Source: Eledone cirrhosa (taxonomy: Eukaryota). Taken from it: a stretch of DNA of 64,000 nucleotides. Each line of letters begins with the position of its first letter. Within the stretch, counting starts at the first letter, position 1. A program made the position numbers and the translations under genes. Shown here in pieces: positions 2,877-64,000 of the stretch. Location of the stretch: contig OZ024753.1 of the NCBI GenBank assembly GCA_964016885.1, forward strand, positions 42,532,001-42,596,000, written 5' to 3'. The notes below the pieces were generated by a model, which saw nothing but the letters and a program-made list of their open reading frames with translations, was not told where the DNA came from and made no database searches.

Positions 2877-3648
2877 ACGATTACTTCAATTGTTGGCTTT
2901 GTGTCTAAATGAGAAAACACTATGTGTATATCAGCAACCGAGTGTTTTCTAAAGAATTAAAAACAACAACAACAATGAAAAAGGTAAAAAGTAAATGAAA
3001 TAAATACTTTTATAGATTCATCTTTCAACAATCGGTCTTTCAGTATTTGGTATTTCAACATTCCGAGGCAGATGAAATAATTATTATAAATATATTCATG
3101 TCAAATCATTCCTTTCTCTTATCAATATTTATTTGTTCTTCGTCCAACAAAACCATATGAAAATAGTTTTATTGTCTTATTATTTGGCTGCAACTTCGCT
3201 GAGCGTGGGAAAAACAATCAGAAAAAGTATTACCTTCAATACTTTTAACACCTCTCTATGTTGATAACACGTTTCAATCAGGGCAAACAAGCATCTACTG
3301 CTACTGGGTGGCCAATTGGCAGAGTCGTTAGAATGTCGGCATTAGTTACAGCTCTCTTAACTCTCAGCTCTCAATTGAAAATAATGTACCTATCAGATAT
3401 TGGAGTCGATTCTTTCCTTTGTTTTCTCTGGAAGAACTCGCACACACACACATGTATGTATGTATGTATGTATGTATGTATGTGAGCAAAGGCACTGCAC
3501 AAAGCCAGCCCCACTCTCTTAACCAAGATGATATTTACCAAAAAGAAGAACAAGTCAACACGGCACAGGCATTGCTTTATATCTGGAGATCTCTCTGCAC
3601 TTGTCATCACATGGTACCATGGGCCCAGCACTATGTGTCAATAATTGT

Positions 3649-3862
3649 CACAAGTGTAGTGTTTGTCCCAGAGTTTTCAAGTCGCTGGCTGGACTAAAAA
3701 GTCACACTTGTTTAGCGGATCGGTAGGGGTTCTCCTACATGGATATAAAGTAGTGGCCGTACTCGAAAACGAGTTGGCAGCCACCATGTATGTATGTATG
3801 TATGTATGTATGTATGTATGTATGTATGTATGTATGTATGTATGTATGTATGTATGTATGTA

Positions 3863-3868
<6 letters not shown>
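3649..3868 (+). mobile_element. RTE-clade LINE 3' end with C-terminal zinc-finger motif and (TATG)n tail
   Basis: Translates HKCSVCPRVFKSLAGLKSH (CxxCxRxFxSxxGLxSH, typical of RTE ORF ends); the tail GGCCGTACTCGA...GCAGCCACCATG(TATG)n recurs at 4544-4590. Confidence 0.6.
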
Positions 3869-3934
<66 letters not shown>

Positions 3935-4979
3935 CTGGTTTTATAATTTCACAAAGTTTTACCAATAGAGAGAGAGTCGGTTTCTAACATAGACACAAGA
4001 CTCTCTCACTGGAATTTACACAACATCAACTAGGTAGATATGTATGTATGCATGTGTAGATATGGATGTTATTGTATGTGTAGATGTGTATGTTTTGAGT
4101 TGTATGTGTGCATGTGTATATGCTTTGCATCTGTACATGTGTATATGCAGTTATTAGATGCAACATTTTTGGAATGTTTTACATATTTTTACTGTTCCAT
4201 TAATGCAGGTTTTATGTATGTATGTATGTATGTATGTATGTATGTATGTATGTATGTATGTATGTATGTATGTATGTTAAACCACTGAGTGAAGGACCCC
4301 TAGCCTTTGTCAGGGCATTCTTCTAGAAGGCAACTCAGGAAACTGGGATAACTCCGATATAAAACCTGCAGCTCAGTAGTTACCGATGATGTTGATCTTT
4401 TCTTCTTTTCGGGTTATAGCTACTGTCTCTCAGAGAGTGGGATTGGCTCAGTGCACAGTCTTTCTTCACTTTAAAAATATCTTTGCGCACAGGCCTTGTA
4501 CGATAGCATTAATTGATAATTACTAATAATGGTATATCGTGCAATGGCCATACTAGATAACGAGGGGGCAGCCATCATGTATGTATGTATAATCAAGATG
4601 TATAAAATGCAGTAAGGCGGCGAATTGGTAGAGTTGTTAGAACATCGAATTAGAATGCCGCCGAGGTCAACTTGGATGTGTCAGGTCAGAGTATTGCCTA
4701 CAATGACCAGGCATGCGGAGCCGTCTTTGCCTGATCTTTTCAATGACTTTTGGCAGCTCTCCATAAAGGCATTTATTTCTCATATGTTGCTGTCACCAAC
4801 TAAAGAATATCTGGCACTCTAAACTGCCTAGAAGGATCAAGACGAAACTGTTCCTTGCAACTGTTAAATCCATAGTTTTGTAGGTCAGTGAAACAAGGAC
4901 ACTTACTGAGAAGTTAGCAAACGGGATAAACGGCTTCTAAACAATGGCCTACTACGAATTTTTATTTTATTTTACTAAC

Positions 4980-5235
4980 CCAGGTACTGCTGCACATCGG
5001 GCGGAGGAGGCCAAACTCTCCAAGTACCGGTCGCTCCCCGACAGGTTTGCGGTCGTGCCCTTGGCAGTGGTGGCTGTTAGTGTCGTTGGCCCTAGGGCTA
5101 CCTCCCTACTCACCACCATAGGCGCTGAGCTGGCCAGCTGCAGGTGTGAGCCTGGCGAGTTGGAATGGCTCTTCCAGCGCATCTCCCTTACCAGCCTCCG
5201 GGGAAACGTCTACTCCATCCTGTCCGCCGGGGCTG
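4980..5235 (+). mobile_element. CRE-like non-LTR retrotransposon, C-terminal RLE endonuclease fragment
   Basis: GC-rich island encoding GTAAHRAEEAKLSKYRSL..RFAVVPLAV...GP.A..LL..IG..L......E.EWLFQRISL...RGNV.SILS, matching the AE..K..KY / PxAVExxG / LFQRxSxxxQRGN pattern of CRE-clade RLE domains. Confidence 0.75.
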
Positions 5236-5652
5236 TGGTGGAGGCGCCAGCACGTGGGACCCCATTTGCTCACCATAGGCAAAGTTATAAACTACGAATG
5301 GCCTAATGATGTAGATTAGTGAATTAGAACAAATACCAAGACGTTTGCAACGACTCTGCCAGTTTAAAGCCTTATATGGTAGTATTACTACTCTCGAATA
5401 TTTATGCGAGATTTAAACGTTATTCTCATAGATTCCAATTGCGTTTCCATGCATCTCATTGAATATTCTTTGCAACTGAACGGATTCCTATTCGGTGGTT
5501 ATATTGTTGCTGTATGTTCTTGTGACGACATTATATTAAATACTAAAGGTTCCGGTGTAAATATCAGTGAATATATATGGAAGACACTCTATGAATATTT
5601 AATATGCTTGTAGAGGGAATATAAAAATGATATATTATGTAGGTGAGCAAGG

Positions 5653-5770
<118 letters not shown>

Positions 5771-6460: not shown

Positions 6461-6785
6461 CTTTCAGAATAAGAATGGTGATATTACAGCTACTGCTAAA
6501 CAATATGTCAGCAGCACGCCACCAGTATGACCATTCTGATTCTGAAGATACGGTTGTGAAGAACAAGAAGCGTTCGTAGTCTTGGATCTAAGAACCTTGT
6601 TCCAAATAATTGTTTCTACTTTAGGCACAAGGCCAGCAATTACCCAGTATATTACTGGTACTTTATTTTATCGACCCCGTAAGGATGAAAGCAAAGTCAA
6701 CCTCGGAAATAATGATTATATATATATATATATATATAATGTGTATGAATGAAACAGTTCTAGTCCTGTAGAAGCTATTTCTATG

Positions 6786-7490: not shown

Positions 7491-7867
7491 AAGTTTGTCC
7501 CGGGTTGAATCGGGGGTAACCACAGTATGTAAGGTACTCAATACAAAGCAGAGTATAAATATTTAATGTAGAAAGGCTTCTACAGGACTAGAATTGTTTC
7601 ATTCCGGAGAAATCATTAGGAAGGCACCACTCACCAACAACCTATTTCAACCATTTGAGGAAGACCTCTTCAAGATGGTCAGCGATATTAAATTTCGTAG
7701 AGCCAAAACACCATTCCAGGCCTACTAAAAAATGAAAAGTTCCCCCAATCTCCGATAAAACCCAAAACGTATATGAGGTGGACCTAGCGACCTATAAAGC
7801 GGCTTCCTCGTGATTTCTCCAGAATGAAACAGTTCTAGTCCTGTAGAAGCCTTTCTACATTAAATAT
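7491..7867. mobile_element. Penelope-like element relic (family A): inverted hammerhead-bearing repeats around an RT ORF fragment
   Basis: Inverted repeat 7559-7625 / 7801-7867, each a hammerhead with a mutated core (CUAAUGA, CUCGUGA). The interior (+) encodes QPFEEDLFKMVSDIKFRRAKTPFQ and, after a frameshift, DKTQNVYEVD, resembling the FExDL..IxFR / ADKxxNxY region N-terminal to PLE RT. Confidence 0.7.
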
Positions 7868-13037: not shown

Positions 13038-13156
<119 letters not shown>

Positions 13157-13181
13157 ATGTATATATATATAAATATATACC

Positions 13182-13235
<54 letters not shown>

Positions 13236-13240
<5 letters not shown>

Positions 13241-13427
13241 AGTAAGTAAGACCCCGACGGCTGAGCTCAAGCCGTTTCGACGGCTAATTCTGTACTGAAT
13301 TAGCCGTCGAAACGGCTTGATCTCAGCCGTCGGGGTCTTACTTACTCCTATTACCCACTCTACTACCCTAAGTATTGAGTACTTTGCTGCGTTATGGTCC
13401 ACCTGGTTCCTTACCACTTTTCCCTCG

Positions 13428-13428
<1 letters not shown>
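13236..13428 (+). mobile_element. Fold-back PLE-like relic (family B) in (TA)n
   Basis: 55-bp arms 13236-13290 / 13297-13351 (one mismatch) plus a unique 3' tail; the right arm carries a hammerhead 3' half GAAAC GGCU..AGCC GUC; (TA)n on both sides. Confidence 0.8.
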
Positions 13429-13472
<44 letters not shown>

Positions 13473-13487
13473 ATGTATATATATATA

Positions 13488-13566
<79 letters not shown>

Positions 13567-18668: not shown

Positions 18669-18726
<58 letters not shown>

Positions 18727-18735
18727 ATATATGTA

Positions 18736-18807
<72 letters not shown>

Positions 18808-18813
18808 ATATAT

Positions 18814-18951
<138 letters not shown>

Positions 18952-18958
18952 ATATGTA

Positions 18959-19017
<59 letters not shown>

Positions 19018-19018
19018 G

Positions 19019-19085
<67 letters not shown>

Positions 19086-19131
19086 ATATATATATGTATG
19101 TATATATATATATGTATGTATATATGTATGT

Positions 19132-19308
19132 ATAGGAAAATGTTCAAGGCCTCGACGACTATTTCTGGACCAGAAATAGCCGTCGAAACGGCTTGAGCTC
19201 TGCCGTCGGGACCTTGAACATTTTCCTATTACCCACTCTACTACCTTCAGTATCGAGTACTCTGGTGCGTTATGGTTCACCTGGTTCCTTACCACACTTC
19301 CTTCGTTG
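19132..19308 (+). mobile_element. Fold-back PLE-like relic (family B), left arm partly deleted
   Basis: ATAGGAAAATGTTCAAGG...CCTTGAACATTTTCCTAT inverted ends, central TATTTCTGG-A-CCAGAAATA hairpin, same tail TACCCACTCTACTACC...CCTGGTTCCTTACCAC. Confidence 0.8.
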
Positions 19309-21010: not shown

Positions 21011-21790
21011 CACTCTAGATGTGCCACTGGTACAGCCAGTCGCTGGGGTGCCACTCTAGATGTGCCACCTGTGAAGCCAGTCGCTGGGGTGCCACTCTAG
21101 ATGTGCCACTGGTAGAGTCAGTCGCTGGGGGGCACTCTAGATGTGCCACTGGTACAGCCAGTCGTTGGGGTGCCACTCTAGATGTGCCACTGGTAGAGTC
21201 AGTCGTTGTGGTGCCACTCTAGATGTGCCACTGGTAGAGTCAGTCGTTGGGATGTCACTCTAGATGTGCTACTGGTAGAGTCAGTCGTTGGGGTGTCACT
21301 CTAGATGTGCCACTGGTAGAGCCAGTCGTTGGGGTGCCACTCTAGATGTGCCACTGGTAGAGTCAGTCGTTGGGGTGTCACTCTAGATGTGCCACTGGTA
21401 GAGCCAGTCGTTGGGGTGTCACTCTAGATGTGCCACTGGTAGAGCCAGTCGTTGGGGTGCCACTCTAGATGTGCCACTGGTAGAGCCAGTCGTTGGGGTG
21501 CCACTCTAGATGTGCCACTGGTAGAGCCAGTCGTTGGGGTGCCACTCTAGATGTGCCACTGGTGCAGCCAGTCGTTGGGGTGCCACTCTAGATGTGCCAC
21601 TGGTGCAGCCAGTCGTTGTGGTGTCACTCTAGATGTGCCACTGGTGCAGCCAGTCGTTGTGGTGTCACTCTAGATGTGCCACTGGTGCAGCCAGTCGTTG
21701 TGGTGTCACTCTAGATGTGCCACTGGTGCAGCCAGTCGTTGGGGTGTCACTCTAGATGTGCCACCTGTGAAGCCAGTTGTCCATGTGCCA
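21011..21790. repeat. 41-bp GC-rich minisatellite, ~19 copies
   Basis: Unit CACTCTAGATGTGCCACTGGTAGAGCCAGTCGTTGGGGTGC; period 41 (21011, 21052, ...). Confidence 0.95.
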
Positions 21791-24579: not shown

Positions 24580-24581
<2 letters not shown>

Positions 24582-24770
24582 CTTCTACAGGACTAGAGCT
24601 GTTTCATTCGTGAGAAATCACCAGGAAGCTTCCTGATGATTTCTCACGAATGAAACAGTTCTAGTCCTGTAGAAGCTCTTCTATATTAAAACTGTTATTG
24701 CTATGTATTGAGTAATTATGTATTGAGTACCTTACTTACTGTGGCTACCTCCGATTCAACCCGGAATAAC
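24580..24770 (+). mobile_element. PLE-like relic (family A): palindromic double hammerhead plus tail
   Basis: 49-bp arms centred on AAGCTT (24626-24631), two mismatches; tail GTATTGAGTACCTTACTTACTGTGG...TTCAACCCGG shared with the 7.5-kb and 30.8-kb copies. Confidence 0.8.
24627..24677 (+). ncRNA. Type I hammerhead ribozyme
   Basis: AGCUUC CUGAUGA UUUC UCAC GAAU GAAAC AG UUCUAGUC CU GUA GAAGCU: 6-bp stem I, canonical core, 4-bp stem III, GUA triplet at 24669-24671. Confidence 0.8.
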
Positions 24771-25760
24771 TTATATTTATGTATATTTATATATTTATAT
24801 ATTTATATATTTATATATATATATTTATATATATGTATATTTTCTTGTTCAGTCTTTGTTGTGATATTGTTTTACATCTGTTACCAACAGAACAGTTCTC
24901 CGATCTGTTGCGTAAACTGGTGCTATAAGTGCAGTGCCACCTTAATGCGTGCGAAATTGCACGCCAACAGGTGGCTGATGAGGTTAGGATACTGTCTGTT
25001 TGTCTTATGTAACTGTTTTACTGCGGGCATTCTTTGTTGATAATACACATACATACTGTGTGTGTGAGTGTGTGTGTGTGTGTGTAATGCTATGTATGTA
25101 AGGTACAACAGGCCTATATATTCAACTTTGTTTTATTTCATTTTCTTTACACACGCATACACACACACAAACATACACCCTTATTATTATAAACACAGAG
25201 ACACCTTCCTTAATATACTCACACACACATGACGTCGAATTGGCAGAATACTTTTCGGAATTTAGTTCAAATCCCACCACCACCACCTGCACCACCACCA
25301 CCTCCACTCGCACCACCTCCACCATATCACACAACAACTACCAACACACCAATACCAGTACACAACATCACAACTATCAACACCGCCGCCTTTACACCTC
25401 CAGCCTCACCATTACCACACCACCACCACCACATCACACCACATTTATCACATCACCATAACCGTCATCACATCACTACCACCAGTACAGCATCTCTCCA
25501 CCACCACCACCACCACCACCACCGCCACCAGCACATTTATCACACCACCATAACCGTCATCACATCACTACCACCAGTACAGCATCTCTCCACCACCACA
25601 TTGCAGTACCCCACCCCCCAGTCCTCCTCTTATCTCGCCGTACTTTACCCTAACCCTAACTCCTAGATACCTTATCTTTATTAGATTCAAACATTACACC
25701 ATTATATTCTCTCTCCTGCTTCTGTTGTTCATTCTGAACACCAAGTCTTTCTCTCTCACG

Positions 25761-28911: not shown

Positions 28912-28964
28912 CTGCTATATATATTTCGGTGACAGCCATCTTTGGCTGTGACCTCTTCAGGCAG
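28912..28964 (-). ncRNA. Type I hammerhead ribozyme (family E, within a repeat at about 28865-29068)
   Basis: Minus strand: CUGC CUGAAGA GGU-C-ACAGCC AAAGAU GGCUGU-C-ACC GAAA UAUAU AUA GCAG. Intact core, long stem II, palindromic UAUAUA stem III; near-identical copy at 56916-56968. Confidence 0.8.
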
Positions 28965-29441
28965 TCCGAATTAGTGTGGTAGAGACGAGTACACATGTTG
29001 TTGAGGTGTATAATTTTGTCAATACTCTGATATGCCCAGTTCCTGGTTGGGTTGTTGTTTCACTGAGGAACTGGAATCATATATATATTGCAGAAAATAA
29101 GTTGCTTATACATGGAACCATTTTAAAACTATAACTGTCTCTGCCAGTGTAGTAATGATGTAAATATGTAAAGTTATATTCTTTCCTCCCACCACACAAC
29201 ACAACTCTGTTCTCTGATCAATAATGTTTGCTACTAGAAATACCATATACAATAGCTCACAAATAATGTTAACCTATATTATTATTCTCGGTAGCCAGTA
29301 AAACTGGAAAAATAACTCTGAAGCCAGTTTATATTAGACCTTTAGGTTATATATATGCATGTATACATCTATATATATATATAAACATATATATATATAT
29401 AGTAATAATAATAAATGTGAAGACTAAAATATATATATATA

Positions 29442-30788: not shown

Positions 30789-30941
30789 TATCGCGGGTTC
30801 AATCGGGGGGTAACCACAATAAGTAAACTACTCAATACAAAGCAGAGTATAAATATTTAATATAGAAAGGCTTCTACAGGACTAGAACTGTTTCATTCAG
30901 GAGAAATCCCGAATGAAACAGTTCTAGTCCTGTAGAAGCCT
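30786..30941 (-). mobile_element. Fold-back PLE-like relic (family A)
   Basis: Perfect 31-bp arms AGGCTTCTACAGGACTAGAACTGTTTCATTC / reverse complement (30868-30898, 30911-30941) holding hammerhead 3' halves; tail homologous to 7491-7573. Solo half at 6747-6776. Confidence 0.8.
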
Positions 30942-30949
30942 GATTTCTG

Positions 30950-30980
<31 letters not shown>

Positions 30981-31310: not shown

Positions 31311-31497
31311 ATAGGAACGAGTAGGACCCCGACGGCTGAGCTCAAGCCGTTTCGACGGCTAATTCTGAATTAGCCGTCGAAACGGCTTGAGCTCAGCCGT
31401 CGGGGCCCTACTCGTTCCTATTACCCACTCTACTACCCTAAGTATTGAGTACTTTGGTGCGTTATGGTCCACCTGGTTCCTTACCACATTTCCTCCG

Positions 31498-31498
<1 letters not shown>
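31311..31498 (+). mobile_element. Fold-back PLE-like relic (family B) in (TA)n
   Basis: 55-bp arms 31311-31365 / 31367-31421 with a 1-nt loop and one mismatch, followed by the family tail; (TA)n both sides. Confidence 0.85.
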
Positions 31499-31540
<42 letters not shown>

Positions 31541-56869: not shown

Positions 56870-57213
56870 AAGTAAAATAAAAAGTCAAATGTTTAAAATT
56901 TAGCTTCGTTTATTCCTGCTATATATATTTCGGTGACAGCCATCTTTGGCTGTGACCTCTTCAGGCAATCCGAATTAGTGTGGTATAGACAAGTACATAT
57001 GTTGTTGAGGTGTATAATTTTGTCAATACTCTGATATGCCCAGTTCCTGGTTGGGTTGTTATTTCACTGAGGAGTAATAAACGAAGCTAAATTTTAAACA
57101 TTTGACTTTTTATTTCACATTACTCCGGAGTAACCAAACCAACCTGCGCACTTCGTCGAGTGCTCCAGCCTGCATACTGGGGTGTTGGTATACAACCAAC
57201 ATATACTCAAAAT
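56870..57213. mobile_element. PLE-like relic (family E) with inverted ends and hammerhead
   Basis: AAATAAAAAGTCAAATGTTTAAAATTTAGCTTCGTTTATT (56875-56914) is inverted at about 57076-57115, then a unique tail; TA-rich flanks. Confidence 0.75.
56916..56968 (-). ncRNA. Type I hammerhead ribozyme (family E)
   Basis: UUGC CUGAAGA GGUCACAGCC AAAGAU GGCUGUCACC GAAA UAUAU AUA GCAG. Confidence 0.8.
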
Positions 57214-59590: not shown

Positions 59591-59969
59591 AATAATTGTT
59601 TCTACTTTAGGCACAAGGCCAGCAATTACCCAGTACATTACTGGTACTTTATTTTATCGACCCCGTAAGGATGAAAGGCAAAGTTAACCTCGGCGGGATT
59701 TGAACTCAGATCGTAAAGGGAGGACGTAACTATGCTGGAAAGCATGGCGTCCGACTCTCTACCGATACTGCCAATCCACACCCGGAATATATATATCAAT
59801 AATATTAATAAATGGAAACTATCTTTATAAAACCATATTTATTTTATTATATATATTTCAAGTCCCGCCGAGGTTAACTTTGCCTTTCATCCTTACGGGG
59901 TCGATAAAATAAAATACCAGTAATGTACTGGGTAATTGCTGGCCTTGTGCCAAAAGTACAAACAATTAT
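59591..59969. mobile_element. Inverted pair of SINE family 1 copies
   Basis: Full copy (-) 59591-59780 and 5'-truncated copy (+) 59857-59969, nearly identical over the shared ~110 bp. Confidence 0.9.
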
Positions 59970-60105: not shown

Positions 60106-60660
<555 letters not shown>

Positions 60661-60681
60661 TATATATATATATATATATAT

Positions 60682-60874
60682 ATATGAAAAGAGTCAGGAC
60701 CCCGACGGCTGAGCTCCGGCCGTTTCGACAGCTAGTTCAGAATTAGCTGTCGAGACGGCCGGAGCTCAGCCGTCGGGGTCCTGACTCTTTTCATATTACC
60801 CACTCTACTACCCAAAGTATCGAGTACTCTGGTGCCTTATGGCCCACCTGGTTCCTTACGACACTTCCTTCGTT
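60682..60874 (+). mobile_element. Fold-back PLE-like relic (family B)
   Basis: 57-bp arms 60682-60738 / 60740-60796 with two mismatches, plus the family tail. Confidence 0.85.
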
Positions 60875-60968
<94 letters not shown>

Positions 60969-60976
60969 GAAAAGAG

Positions 60977-63900
60977 CCGTTAGAAATAGGGTAATGAAAG
61001 GGTTAAAGACATAGACAGTGTCTTTCGTTAGAAATAGGGTAATGGAAGGGTTAATGACATAGACAGTGTCTTTCGTTAGAAATAGGGTAATGGAAGGGTT
61101 AATGACATAGACAGTGTCTTTCGTTAGAAATAGGGTAATGGAAGGGTTAATGACATAGGTAATGTCTTTCGTTAGAAATAGGGTAATGGAAGGGTTAATG
61201 ACATAGGTAATGTCTTTCGTTAGAAATAGGGTAATGGAAGGGTTAATGACATAGACAGTGTCTTTCGTTAGAAATAGGGTAATGGAAGGGTTAATGACAT
61301 AGGTAATGTCTTTCGTTAGAAATAGGGTAATGGAAGGGTTAATGACATGGACAGTGTCTTTCATTAGAAATGTGGTAATGAAAGGGTTAAAGACATAGAC
61401 AGTGTCTTTCGTTAGAAATAGGGTAATGGAAGGGTTAATGACATAGGTAATGTCTTTCGTTAGAAATAGGGTAATGGAAGGGTTAATGACATAGGTAATG
61501 TCTTTCGTTAGAAATAGGGTAATGGAAGGGTTAATGACATAGACAGTGTCTTTCGTTAGAAATAGGGTAATGGAAGGGTTAATGACATAGACAGTGTCTT
61601 TCGTTAGAAATAGGGTAATGGAAGGGTTAATGACATAGACAGTGTCTTTCGTTAGAAATAGGGTAATGGAAGGGTTAATGACATAGGTAATGTCTTTCGT
61701 TAGAATTAGGGTAATGGAAGGGTTAATGACATAGACAGTGTCTTTCGTTAGAAATAGGGTAATGAAAGGGTTAAAGACATAGACAGTGTCTTTCGTTAGA
61801 AATAGGGTAATGGAAGGGTTAATGACATAGACAGTGTCTTTCATTAGAAATATGGTAATGAAAGGGTTAATGACATAGACAGTGTCTTTCGTTAGAATTA
61901 GGGTAATGGAAGGGTTAATGACATAGACAGTGTCTTTCGTTAGAAATAGGGTAATGGAAGGGTTAATGACATAGACAGTGTCTTTCGTTAGAAATAGGGT
62001 AATGGAAGGGTTAATGACATAGACAGTGTCTTTCGTTAGAAATAGGGTAATGGAAGGGTTAATGACATAGACAGTGTCTTTCGTTAGAAATAGGGTAATG
62101 GAAGGGTTAATGACATAGACAGTGTCTTTCGTTAGAAATAGGGTAATGGAAGGGTTAATGACATAGACAGTGTCTTTCGTTAGAAATAGGGTAATGGAAG
62201 TGTTAATGACATAGACAGTGTCTTTCATTAGAAATATGGTAATGAAAGGGTTAATGACATAGACAGTGTCTTTCGTTAGAAATAGGGTAATGGAAGGGTT
62301 AATGACATAGACAGTGTCTTTCATTAGAAATAGGGTAATGAAAGGGTTAAAGACAGACAGTGTCTTTCATTAGAAATAGGGTAATGAAAGGGTTAAAGAC
62401 ATAGACAGTGTCTTTCATTAGAAATGTGGTAATGAAAGGGTTAAAGACATAGACAGTGTCTTTCATTAGAAATAGGGTAATGAAAGGGTTAAAGCCATAG
62501 ACAGTGTCTTTCATTAGAAATATGGTAATGAAAGGGTTAAAGACATAGACAGTGTCTTTCATTAGAAATAGGGTAATGAAAGGGTTAAAGACATAGACAG
62601 TGTCTTTCATTAGAAATAGGGTAATGAAAGGGTTAAAGACATAGACAGTGTCTTTCATTAGAAATAGGGTAATGAAAGGGTTAAAGACATAGACAGTGTC
62701 TTTCATTAGAAATAGGGTAATGGAAGGGTTAAAGACAGACAGTGTCTTTCATTAGAAATAGGGTAATGAAAGGGTTAAAGACATAGACAGTGTCTTTCGT
62801 TAGAAATAGGGTAATGGAAGGGTTAATGACATAGGTAATGTCTTTCGTTAGAAATAGGGTAATGGAAGGGTTAATGACATGGACAGTGTCTTTCATTAGA
62901 AATGTGGTAATGAAAGGGTTAAAGACATAGACAGTGTCTTTCGTTAGAAATAGGGTAATGGAAGGGTTAATGACATAGGTAATGTCTTTCGTTAGAAATA
63001 GGGTAATGGAAGGGTTAATGACATAGGTAATGTCTTTCGTTAGAAATAGGGTAATGGAAGGGTTAATGACATAGACAGTGTCTTTCGTTAGAAATAGGGT
63101 AATGGAAGGGTTAATGACATAGACAGTGTCTTTCGTTAGAAATAGGGTAATGGAAGGGTTAATGACATAGACAGTGTCTTTCGTTAGAAATAGGGTAATG
63201 GAAGGGTTAATGACATAGGTAATGTCTTTCGTTAGAATTAGGGTAATGGAAGGGTTAATGACATAGACAGTGTCTTTCGTTAGAAATAGGGTAATGAAAG
63301 GGTTAAAGACATAGACAGTGTCTTTCGTTAGAAATAGGGTAATGGAAGGGTTAATGACATAGACAGTGTCTTTCATTAGAAATATGGTAATGAAAGGGTT
63401 AATGACATAGACAGTGTCTTTCGTTAGAATTAGGGTAATGGAAGGGTTAATGACATAGACAGTGTCTTTCGTTAGAAATAGGGTAATGGAAGGGTTAATG
63501 ACATAGACAGTGTCTTTCGTTAGAAATAGGGTAATGGAAGGGTTAATGACATAGACAGTGTCTTTCGTTAGAAATAGGGTAATGGAAGGGTTAATGACAT
63601 AGACAGTGTCTTTCGTTAGAAATAGGGTAATGGAAGGGTTAATGACATAGACAGTGTCTTTCGTTAGAAATAGGGTAATGGAAGGGTTAATGACATAGAC
63701 AGTGTCTTTCGTTAGAAATAGGGTAATGGAAGTGTTAATGACATAGACAGTGTCTTTCATTAGAAATATGGTAATGAAAGGGTTAATGACATAGACAGTG
63801 TCTTTCGTTAGAAATAGGGTAATGGAAGGGTTAATGACATAGACAGTGTCTTTCATTAGAAATAGGGTAATGAAAGGGTTAAAGACAGACAGTGTCTTTC

Positions 63901-64000
63901 ATTAGAAATAGGGTAATGAAAGGGTTAAAGACATAGACAGTGTCTTTCATTAGAAATGTGGTAATGAAAGGGTTAAAGACATAGACAGTGTCTTTCATTA
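60977..64000. repeat. 48-bp satellite array (~63 copies, runs off window end)
   Basis: Unit TTAGAAATAGGGTAATGGAAGGGTTAATGACATAGACAGTGTCTTTCG; the variant pattern repeats at a 1532-bp spacing. Confidence 0.97.

What the first reader, a model, noticed from the sequence alone, without database searches (positions are those of the whole stretch)
13236..13428. Family B: stereotyped ~190-bp fold-back elements in (TA)n whose apex sits at hammerhead stem II
Seen: four copies (13236, 19132, 31311, 60682) share one architecture: (TA)n, a 55-57-bp inverted arm, a 1-6-nt loop, the sense arm, a ~77-nt tail, then TA/CA repeats. The sense arm holds the hammerhead 3' half (GAAAC GGCU..AGCC GUC) but the CUGANGA half is replaced by the mirror image. 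Copies differ from one another next to stem I (TTACTTACTCC, TTGAACATTTTCC, CTACTCGTTCC, CTGACTCTTTTC), yet each left arm mirrors its own right arm, and all left arms end at the same TAT. Inference: the palindrome forms at insertion by snap-back priming on the stem II hairpin and resolves on TA microhomology, or this is a non-autonomous hairpin retroelement amplified as a unit. Inverted pLTR fragments are known for PLEs; this precision and recurrence is what seems unusual.
Basis: partly seen in the sequence, partly recalled or inferred. Interest (0 to 1): 0.75.

Follow-up and report, generated by a model that had tools for sequence, protein, structure and literature searches.

The report
Penelope mini-hairpins stop at RNA start
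These small DNA hairpins are tens of thousands of very short insertions of a Penelope-type jumping gene whose full-length parent is in the same genome, and they likely form when both ends of a cut TA repeat copy the first 60 to 140 bases of the element's RNA and are then joined, which would give a direct test of how these telomerase relatives insert.

Summary
The four copies are real and belong to a family with 42,304 exact hits of one 19-mer in the genome. The parent was found: a Hydra-clade Penelope-like element (717-aa-class RT plus endonuclease frame) whose pLTR carries a U3-A8 hammerhead. The layout (inverted truncated copy, tail on one side, (TA)n target) is published for such elements. 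The apex lies in a 37-39-nt loop II, not on a stem II hairpin. It differs between copies (61 junctions in 68). Either arm can be the longer one (24 left, 21 right), which simple snap-back cannot give. Arm ends pile up at an initiator-like A, 29-31 nt behind a TATA-like box. An untemplated G precedes that A 1,155 times against 297 for A, as expected from copying an RNA cap. Best reading (0.68): two cDNAs are primed at two fixed sites near the 5' end of the mRNA, run off the capped end and are joined. No RNA data were available. This scan noted the same layout, a start-site reading and twin hairpins before on other DNA of this genome.

The parts
13236..13296 (-). B1 tail-less arm; read on the minus strand it runs from parent +1 (the A of AGTAC) to the arm end TAT (+61)
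   Evidence: parent numbering from L179
13297..13351 (+). B1 tailed arm, parent +7 to +61: stem II 3' strand, GAAAC, stem III, GTC cleavage triplet, stem I 3' strand, variable block
13352..13431 (+). B1 77-nt tail plus TAT junction; holds the first bulged hairpin 5 nt behind the arm end
19132..19169 (-). B2 tail-less arm, from +3, with a 23-nt internal deletion between the two CCGTCG repeats
19170..19307 (+). B2 tailed arm (from +4) and tail
31311..31366 (-). B3 tail-less arm, from +5/+6 (1-nt microhomology with the other arm)
31367..31501 (+). B3 tailed arm (from +7), 77-nt tail and TAT junction
60682..60738 (-). B4 tail-less arm, from +7 (6-nt overlap with the other arm)
60733..60875 (+). 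B4 tailed arm reaching -1/+1, and tail; a more diverged subfamily
13041..13238 (.). (TA)n target array left of B1; similar arrays flank the other copies (13429-13564, 18672-19134, 31499-31538)

Best explanation
Each hairpin is a very short insertion of a Hydra-clade Penelope-like retrotransposon whose coding parent is present in the genome, and it likely forms when both ends of a cut (TA)n site prime copies of the first 60-140 bases of the element's capped RNA, which are then joined end to end. SHOWN: the parent (L179) is pLTR - open frame with a telomerase-like RT fold and a Hydra-type endonuclease motif set - 3' UTR - pLTR. The short copies equal parent +1..+61 on one side and +1..+141 on the other, back to back. 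Both outer ends lie at a TAT of the element that runs into (TA)n, 5 and 3 nt in front of two similar bulged hairpins. Inner ends pile up at -4..+7, behind a TATA-like box at -29 to -31 and on an initiator-like TT(T/C)AGT. An extra G, or a run of T, often precedes +1. INFERRED: (1) the pLTR promoter lies inside hammerhead loop II, so the mRNA starts at +1 (or -4) and carries only half a ribozyme at its 5' end; (2) the endonuclease cuts both strands of (TA)n and each 3'-ATA end pairs with a UAU in the RNA, one at +61 and one at +141; (3) when these sites lie in the 5' copy of the pLTR, the RT reaches the capped end after 60 or 140 nt, copies the cap as C and may add A's; (4) the two cDNA ends are trimmed and joined by microhomology or filler, giving the mirror; (5) when the same two sites are used in the 3' pLTR of a read-through RNA, the same route gives the long inverted copies, about 7% of arms.
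For: Parent and frame. Model pLDDT 90; best PDB match is telomerase TERT, E 2.9e-8. Hydra motifs: RW 50/49 of 50, DKT, CxCx5C and YIG conserved across 50 aligned proteins, matching section 11 of PMC8557442. One tail and one tail-less end also in the six long inverted pairs seen at both ends (L179-L183 and L193). Pile-up: the longer arm starts at -4..+7 in 53 of 68 two-armed copies; 98 of 160 arm ends lie there, 7 at -5..-19, and 7 are long. Symmetry: left longer 24, right longer 21, equal 23. Untemplated G: all 24 parents have T (20) or C (4) at -1; among 8,610 arms in copies with both arms reaching +1, G precedes +1 in 1,155 and A in 297. Such a G is attributed to cap copying for L1/SVA (PMC3287187). 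TATA-like box 29-31 nt upstream in 28 of 28 parsed parents (TATTTAAA in 14). A second HHR family in the same loci behaves alike, although its pile-up lies upstream of the ribozyme core: 3 of 42 arms are parent-like with TATAAA 28-30 nt before an A, 8 reach about that A, and 31 start downstream of it or are diverged. In vitro, a PLE protein cut and extended both strands and started RT at two internal sites near the ORF start (PMC11167929). Twin hairpins and loop/bulge-confined variation in 224 copies. Two copies have arms of different subfamily type (L168, L170).
Against: No transcript data, so the start site and cap are inferred from DNA only. The extra G is found in only about 13% of arms reaching +1, and some G's can come from short templated fillers (visible). 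62 of 160 arm ends lie outside -4..+7. Deletion at palindrome centres after insertion could make or blur the arm asymmetry. Arms share their subfamily type in 73 of 80 copies (19.6 expected by chance); this fits one RNA serving both ends, but it fits fold-back copying equally well. L244 holds an arm copied from neighbouring DNA across a TA run, so DNA-templated fold-back does occur. The box is not TATA-like in every subfamily (TAGATCAT in 2 of 28). The parent hammerhead has no Rfam hit, its fold z-score is only -1.12, and 6 of 24 parents have a mismatched 3-8 pair. The ORF has no Pfam hit; 2 of 50 homologues hit GIY-YIG weakly. Three junctions (L084, L168, L276) are mis-parsed as -4/-4.
Confidence: 0.68

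Rival explanations
1. Self-priming (snap-back): one cDNA, or an antisense template, folds back near stem II and is extended on itself, giving the mirror arm, which then resolves on TA microhomology.
For: Arms share their subfamily type in 73 of 80 copies. Palindromes at inverted junctions were read this way in rotifer PLEs (PMC3846280 discussion). L244 shows a DNA-templated inverted copy.
Against: The tail-less arm is longer than the tailed one in 24 of 68 copies; a fold-back of the tailed cDNA cannot give this, and a fold-back of the tail-less cDNA cannot add the tail. Centres of 0-1 nt (CG, CAG, AAATTT) are too tight for a priming loop. The parent's own stem II 5' strand is absent from the short copies. 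L168 and L170 have unlike arms.
Confidence: 0.12
2. A non-autonomous hairpin or 140-nt mini-element is transcribed from master copies and amplified as a unit by the Penelope protein.
For: Short copies outnumber long ones more than tenfold. The 40 scored best hits to B3 all have the inverted arm. B3, L022, L027 and L028 share one right-arm-only change. An earlier unchecked note (e1-8673030) reports an edited hairpin RNA copied back into DNA.
Against: 61 distinct junctions in 68 copies. Arm-to-arm differences are symmetric and mostly CpG-type. Short copies lack the TATA-like box. The B3-like set was chosen by likeness to B3. The same variable blocks occur in long copies.
Confidence: 0.09
3. Two cDNAs are joined as in the best explanation, but the inner end is set by an RT stall or an RNA cut in hammerhead loop II of a longer RNA rather than by a transcription start.
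For: The pile-up lies within a structured RNA. Ends spread over about 11 nt and beyond. TTTAG resembles a splice acceptor (sequence).
Against: G-over-A excess at -1. TATA-like spacing. The second family piles up upstream of its core, again about 30 nt behind TATAAA. The predicted ribozyme cut is after +41, not at +1. No shared upstream exon was seen in the listed junctions.
Confidence: 0.1
4. A DNA-transposon MITE with TA target duplication.
For: Short, high copy number, inverted repeat, TA flanks.
Against: The inverted repeat is not terminal: one end carries a 77-nt tail. The sequence is the pLTR and 5' leader of an RT-encoding element.
Confidence: 0.01

Closest known systems
Hydra clade of C-terminal EN+ Penelope-like elements (Craig et al. 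2021, PMC8557442; sections 3 and 11, passages and supplement searches read)
   Same: Short single ORF with RW(K/R), DKT, CxCx5C linker, no CCHH, CxxC and CxH near the end; (TA)n target; hammerhead in the pLTR; inverted 5'-truncated copy and one-sided tail.
   Different: A family not found in that supplement (three pLTR motifs gave 0 hits; Hydra-1_Obim is a different sequence by eye). Tail 77 nt, not 30-40. U3-A8 core and 37-39-nt loop II. Most copies are 190-bp minis ending at one place.
Poseidon element PAc of Anolis (Frangieh et al. 2024, PMC11167929; parts 1-2 of 4 read)
   Same: Two internal RT start sites bounding the tail, near the 5' end of the RNA; both target strands cut and extended; AT-rich target; hammerhead cleavage not needed.
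   Different: Other clade. In the parts read it gives no model for the inverted arm, for joining two cDNAs or for run-off at the RNA start.
Adineta vaga Penelope elements (Arkhipova et al. 2013, PMC3846280; passages read)
   Same: Head-to-head inverted pLTRs with palindromic junctions, optional tail, TATA and initiator-like motifs in the pLTR.
   Different: Explained there by self-priming on an antisense template; the arm-length symmetry and extra G seen here favour two primed sense copies.
[quoted passage not shown]
   Same: Type I motif, long helix II with unpaired bases at its base, U3-A8 covariant reported in Schistosoma PLEs, pairs of motifs on opposite strands 100-700 bp apart.
   Different: Here helix III is full (6 bp), and the abundant copies keep only the 3' half.
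Animal non-LTR retrozymes (10.64898/2026.07.22.740005; parts 1-3 of 5 read)
   Same: Short, non-coding, derived from PLE pLTRs, moved by PLE proteins.
   Different: Retrozymes are tandem units with whole ribozymes; these are single back-to-back half-ribozyme copies.
Cap-derived untemplated G at 5' ends of L1/SVA insertions (PMC3287187; two passages read); twin priming of L1 and strong-stop DNA of LTR elements (recalled)
   Same: Extra G at a full-length 5' end; two primed cDNAs joined in inverted orientation; short run-off cDNA from a site near the RNA 5' end.
   Different: In L1 twin priming the second primer anneals internally and the two pieces do not overlap (recalled); here both pieces cover the same 5' end and start at fixed RNA sites.

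Membership tests
EN+ Penelope-like element | telomerase-like RT in a single ORF | tested here: met
   L179 open frame 3379-5739 with YRDDG; model's best match is TERT 3du5; no Pfam hit
EN+ Penelope-like element | C-terminal GIY-YIG endonuclease | tested here: inconclusive
   VIY...YIG, R, E and N motifs conserved in 50 homologues; only 2 of 50 hit PF01541, best E 0.0057; the fold search listed polymerases only
EN+ Penelope-like element | pLTRs in partial tandem with adjacent inverted truncated copy and one-sided tail | tested here: met
   L179 self-comparison; end types
Hydra clade | RWK-type and DKT motifs | tested here: met
   LRWR at 36, SDKTG at 116; definition read
Hydra clade | CxCx5C linker; no CCHH; CxxC and CxH around E and N | tested here: met
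   CNCPDRSIC, CNLC, CKH; one non-conserved C between VIY and YIG
Hydra clade | insertion into (TA)n | tested here: met
   59 of 64 left flanks begin with TA-type dinucleotides by a loose test; flanks listed
Hydra clade | falls in the Hydra clade in an RT tree | not tested
   reference sequences were seen only in the paper's supplement and were not available as tool input
Type I hammerhead (parent pLTR) | core boxes, three helices, NUH triplet | tested here: met
   18 of 24 parents have TTGANAA with N varying; the minimum-energy fold is the three-way junction; z -1.12; no Rfam hit
Type I hammerhead (parent pLTR) | self-cleavage | not testable with these tools
   needs an in vitro assay
Type I hammerhead (short copies) | both core boxes present | tested here: not met
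   the 5' box lies about 40 nt upstream of where the short copies end
Non-LTR retrozyme | tandem units each with a whole hammerhead | tested here: not met
MITE | terminal inverted repeats at both ends, transposase-derived | tested here: not met
   one end is a 77-nt tail; the parent encodes RT

The most novel reading that the evidence does not exclude
Penelope-like elements insert by a two-ended reaction on one sense RNA. Two hairpin-marked UAU sites act like short telomerase templates for the two cut ends of a TA repeat. The promoter is placed inside the ribozyme's loop so that the mRNA cannot cut its own 5' end. The commonest product is a joined pair of strong-stop cDNAs carrying a fossil of the RNA cap. 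These 40,000-plus minis are then a genome-wide record of the start site and of the joining step, and they argue against the published self-priming model.
Probability: 0.5. Interest if true: 0.72.

Novelty: new variant of a known kind. Interest (0 to 1): 0.52.

Why it matters
How Penelope-like elements make their inverted repeats is named as an open task in PMC8557442, and the one published explanation found (self-priming, PMC3846280) was left untested. A 190-bp product present in tens of thousands of young copies (arms differ by about 3%), with an intact-frame parent, gives clear predictions: capped start at +1, RT starts at +61 and +141, two primed strands. All of these can be checked with an existing in vitro assay. 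It also means such repeats are easily misannotated as MITEs, SINEs or microRNA hairpins (mir-type Rfam hits below threshold at B3 and B4). The element class and the insertion layout are already known.

Tried and rejected
The predicted CUGANGA parent pattern gave 0 hits. A looser pattern gave 64 hits; of the 20 loci viewed none was a parent, being junction fillers or chance flanks. A tail-extension pattern gave 8 hits and no parent in the loci displayed. A GIY-YIG family search with 50 loci examined returned other PLE families, not the parent; the parent came from position-ordered copies. I first guessed the Nematis clade from memory and dropped it after reading the Hydra definition. The first junction parsers mis-assigned several arms because of the internal repeat; one search is the version quoted, and still has three mis-parsed rows. 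The family C count failed through a spacing error and was redone. No RNA holder was listed. Contigs of four runs of unknown kind showed depth rising near +1, falling after the tail end, and loose TA ends at both TAT sites; they may include the assembly's own sample and depth is no copy number, so this is not counted as support. A PDB sequence search with the alignment gave nothing significant. A Pol III/tRNA origin was considered; I saw no A or B box by eye. A type II hammerhead was considered; there is no core box downstream. A splice-acceptor origin of the 5' end was considered; no shared upstream exon was seen. Literature searches for a published description of this short class found none; passages of an octopus repeat annotation (PMC13282606) do not describe it. 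The library lacks most subscription papers and Repbase/Dfam, and bioRxiv supplements were closed, so a family entry may exist unseen.

Full report
Observation. The four copies are in the window as described, each between TA or CA repeats. B1, B3 and B4 have 55-, 55- and 57-bp arms with 1, 1 and 2 mismatches. B2's left arm is 38 nt because 23 nt are deleted between two short repeats. The window is G000:C13:42532001-42596000 of a 3.0-Gb genome. A 19-mer spanning arm end and tail occurs 42,304 times, the reversed control 0 times.

Parent. I then took copies in order of position along contig 1 (the first 100 places, fetched). Several continue upstream with a shared sequence instead of a mirror. 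One of them, L179, is a full element: (TA)n, an inverted tailed copy (708-1537), a truncated direct copy, an open frame at 3379-5739 (ATG at 3580), a 3' UTR and a pLTR that ends without tail at 6527 in (TA)n. The protein has no Pfam hit, but 2,054 relatives were found among 7,996 scored candidates. Its model (pLDDT 90) matches telomerase RT best. Its motifs are those listed for the Hydra clade in section 11 of PMC8557442. It is not Hydra-1_Obim, judged by eye and by 0 hits of three pLTR motifs in the supplement. No tree was built.

Ribozyme. In 24 distinct parent pLTR contexts (some are two or three copies of one insertion) the order is stem I, core, stem II, a long loop, stem II, GAAAC, stem III, GTC, stem I. 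The core is TTGANAA in 18, with N varying; 2 have U3-G8, 3 have C3-A8 and 1 has G3. U3-A8 is a reported PLE variant (PMC4209133). The minimum-energy fold is the three-way junction, but its z-score is -1.12 and Rfam has no hit. Activity is untested. Numbering from the A of TT(T/C)AGT in loop II as +1, the predicted cut is after +41, the arm end is +61, the tail end +141 and the ATG +232. The short copies therefore lack the 5' half because they end inside loop II, not because stem II folded back.

Outer ends. Both ends lie at a TAT that continues as (TA)n. The six long inverted pairs seen at both ends also have one tailed and one tail-less end, on either side. Following a lead from earlier scan notes, I checked for paired hairpins. 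A 4+4-bp stem with a 2-nt bulge and a C-rich loop begins 5 nt after the arm end, and another 3 nt after the tail end. In 224 copies of the first hairpin, changes concentrate in two loop positions (42 and 59 copies) and the bulge (15), against at most 7 at any stem position; no compensatory pairs were seen. PMC11167929 showed for another clade that the tail lies between two RT start sites and that both target strands are cut and extended.

Inner ends. Of 101 position-ordered copies, 98 were parsed: 68 two-armed, 7 long, 6 unparsed, and the rest without a recognised left arm. The 68 have 61 distinct junctions. The left arm is longer in 24, the right in 21, and they are equal in 23; three rows are mis-parsed. 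Of 160 arm ends, 98 lie at -4..+7, 7 at -5..-19, 7 are long and 48 lie further in. Genome-wide, a parent-type anchor has 3,819 hits (control 596; 85 of the 100 listed belong to the family by my count), against 45,413 arms with the core motif under the same kind of filter. So about 7% of arms are long. A TATA-like box starts 29-31 nt before +1 in 28 parsed parents, though 2 read TAGATCAT. TCATTT and TTAGTC/TCAGTC fit the initiator consensus as I recall it. All 24 parents have T or C at -1. Among 8,610 arms in copies where both arms reach +1, G stands at -1 in 1,155 and A in 297 (these two counts leave out 1-nt centres). Recurrent centres CG and CAG occur in different subfamilies, and poly-A/T fillers are common. 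An untemplated G at this place is ascribed to cap copying for L1 and SVA (PMC3287187). Some G's here may come from templated fillers. A second hammerhead family in the same loci shows the same rule with its pile-up upstream of the core, about 30 nt behind TATAAA (42 arms). This suggests the promoter, not stem II, sets the apex.

Arms compared. Both arms carry the same subfamily block in 73 of 80 copies where both blocks are common types (19.6 expected; all loci pooled, including biased sets). Five of the seven exceptions with a common type on both sides differ at one base, as does a sixth; L168 differs at three, and L170, outside that count, has two different types. Arms differ by 3.2% on average in 55 ungapped pairs, with symmetric, mostly CpG-type changes. 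Against my reading: L244 holds an arm copied from neighbouring DNA across a TA run, four B3-like copies share a right-arm-only change, and later deletion at palindrome centres cannot be excluded.

Mechanism. Shown: parent, geometry, two fixed outer ends, pile-up and diversity of inner ends, G excess. Inferred: a promoter in loop II, capped RNA from +1, priming of both cut TA ends at +61 and +141, run-off at the cap, and joining by microhomology or filler. I put this at 0.68, snap-back at 0.12, stall or RNA cut at 0.10, unit amplification at 0.09 and MITE at 0.01.

Known and new. The layout is described in PMC8557442 and PMC3846280; the latter proposes self-priming. I found no paper describing the short class, the start-site pile-up or the extra G, within a library that lacks many journals and repeat databases. 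Earlier notes of this scan on other pieces of the genome reach a similar reading. They are unchecked and are not counted as support; my reading was stated before I saw them, except for the twin hairpins. No RNA data were available. Verdict: a new variant of a known kind, interest 0.52.

Noticed in passing
window 60270-60660: Another Penelope-type fold-back with a complete CUGAUGA hammerhead core in both arms and a palindromic centre, directly left of B4 in the same TA array.
   Followed up: no
window 7559-7867, 24580-24790, 30840-30950, and near 6750, 39395, 56400: A further hammerhead fold-back family. Its short copies start about 30 nt behind a TATAAA seen in three parent-like copies (L042, L119, L124). 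The copy at 7559-7867 includes a piece with weak likeness to the Hydra ORF start.
   Followed up: partly
window 56875-57115 and near 28960-29070: A fourth family with two hammerhead-like cores on opposite strands inside a 40-bp inverted repeat.
   Followed up: no
L244 (G000:C1:86724711-86727741): An arm with a private change and its junction filler is duplicated in inverted form across a (TA)n run, suggesting DNA-templated fold-back on the TA repeat.
   Followed up: partly
L292, L079: Copies with a tail on both arms: the higher start site used on both sides.
   Followed up: partly
L062 / L184: A +1 arm is joined to an internal 3' UTR stretch of the same element in the same orientation, like a template jump that could build partial tandems.
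   Followed up: no
L119:1775-5065, L120:4806-7622, L121:2488-5022: Long open frames (1096, 938, 844 codons) of other Penelope-like families with RT and GIY-YIG motifs; the genome gave 10,596 GIY-YIG candidates.
   Followed up: partly
window 60950-64000 and 21011-21764: 48-bp and 41-bp minisatellite arrays.
   Followed up: no
window 59610-59951: A long inverted pair of a common repeat around a TA-rich centre, with mismatches between arms.
   Followed up: no
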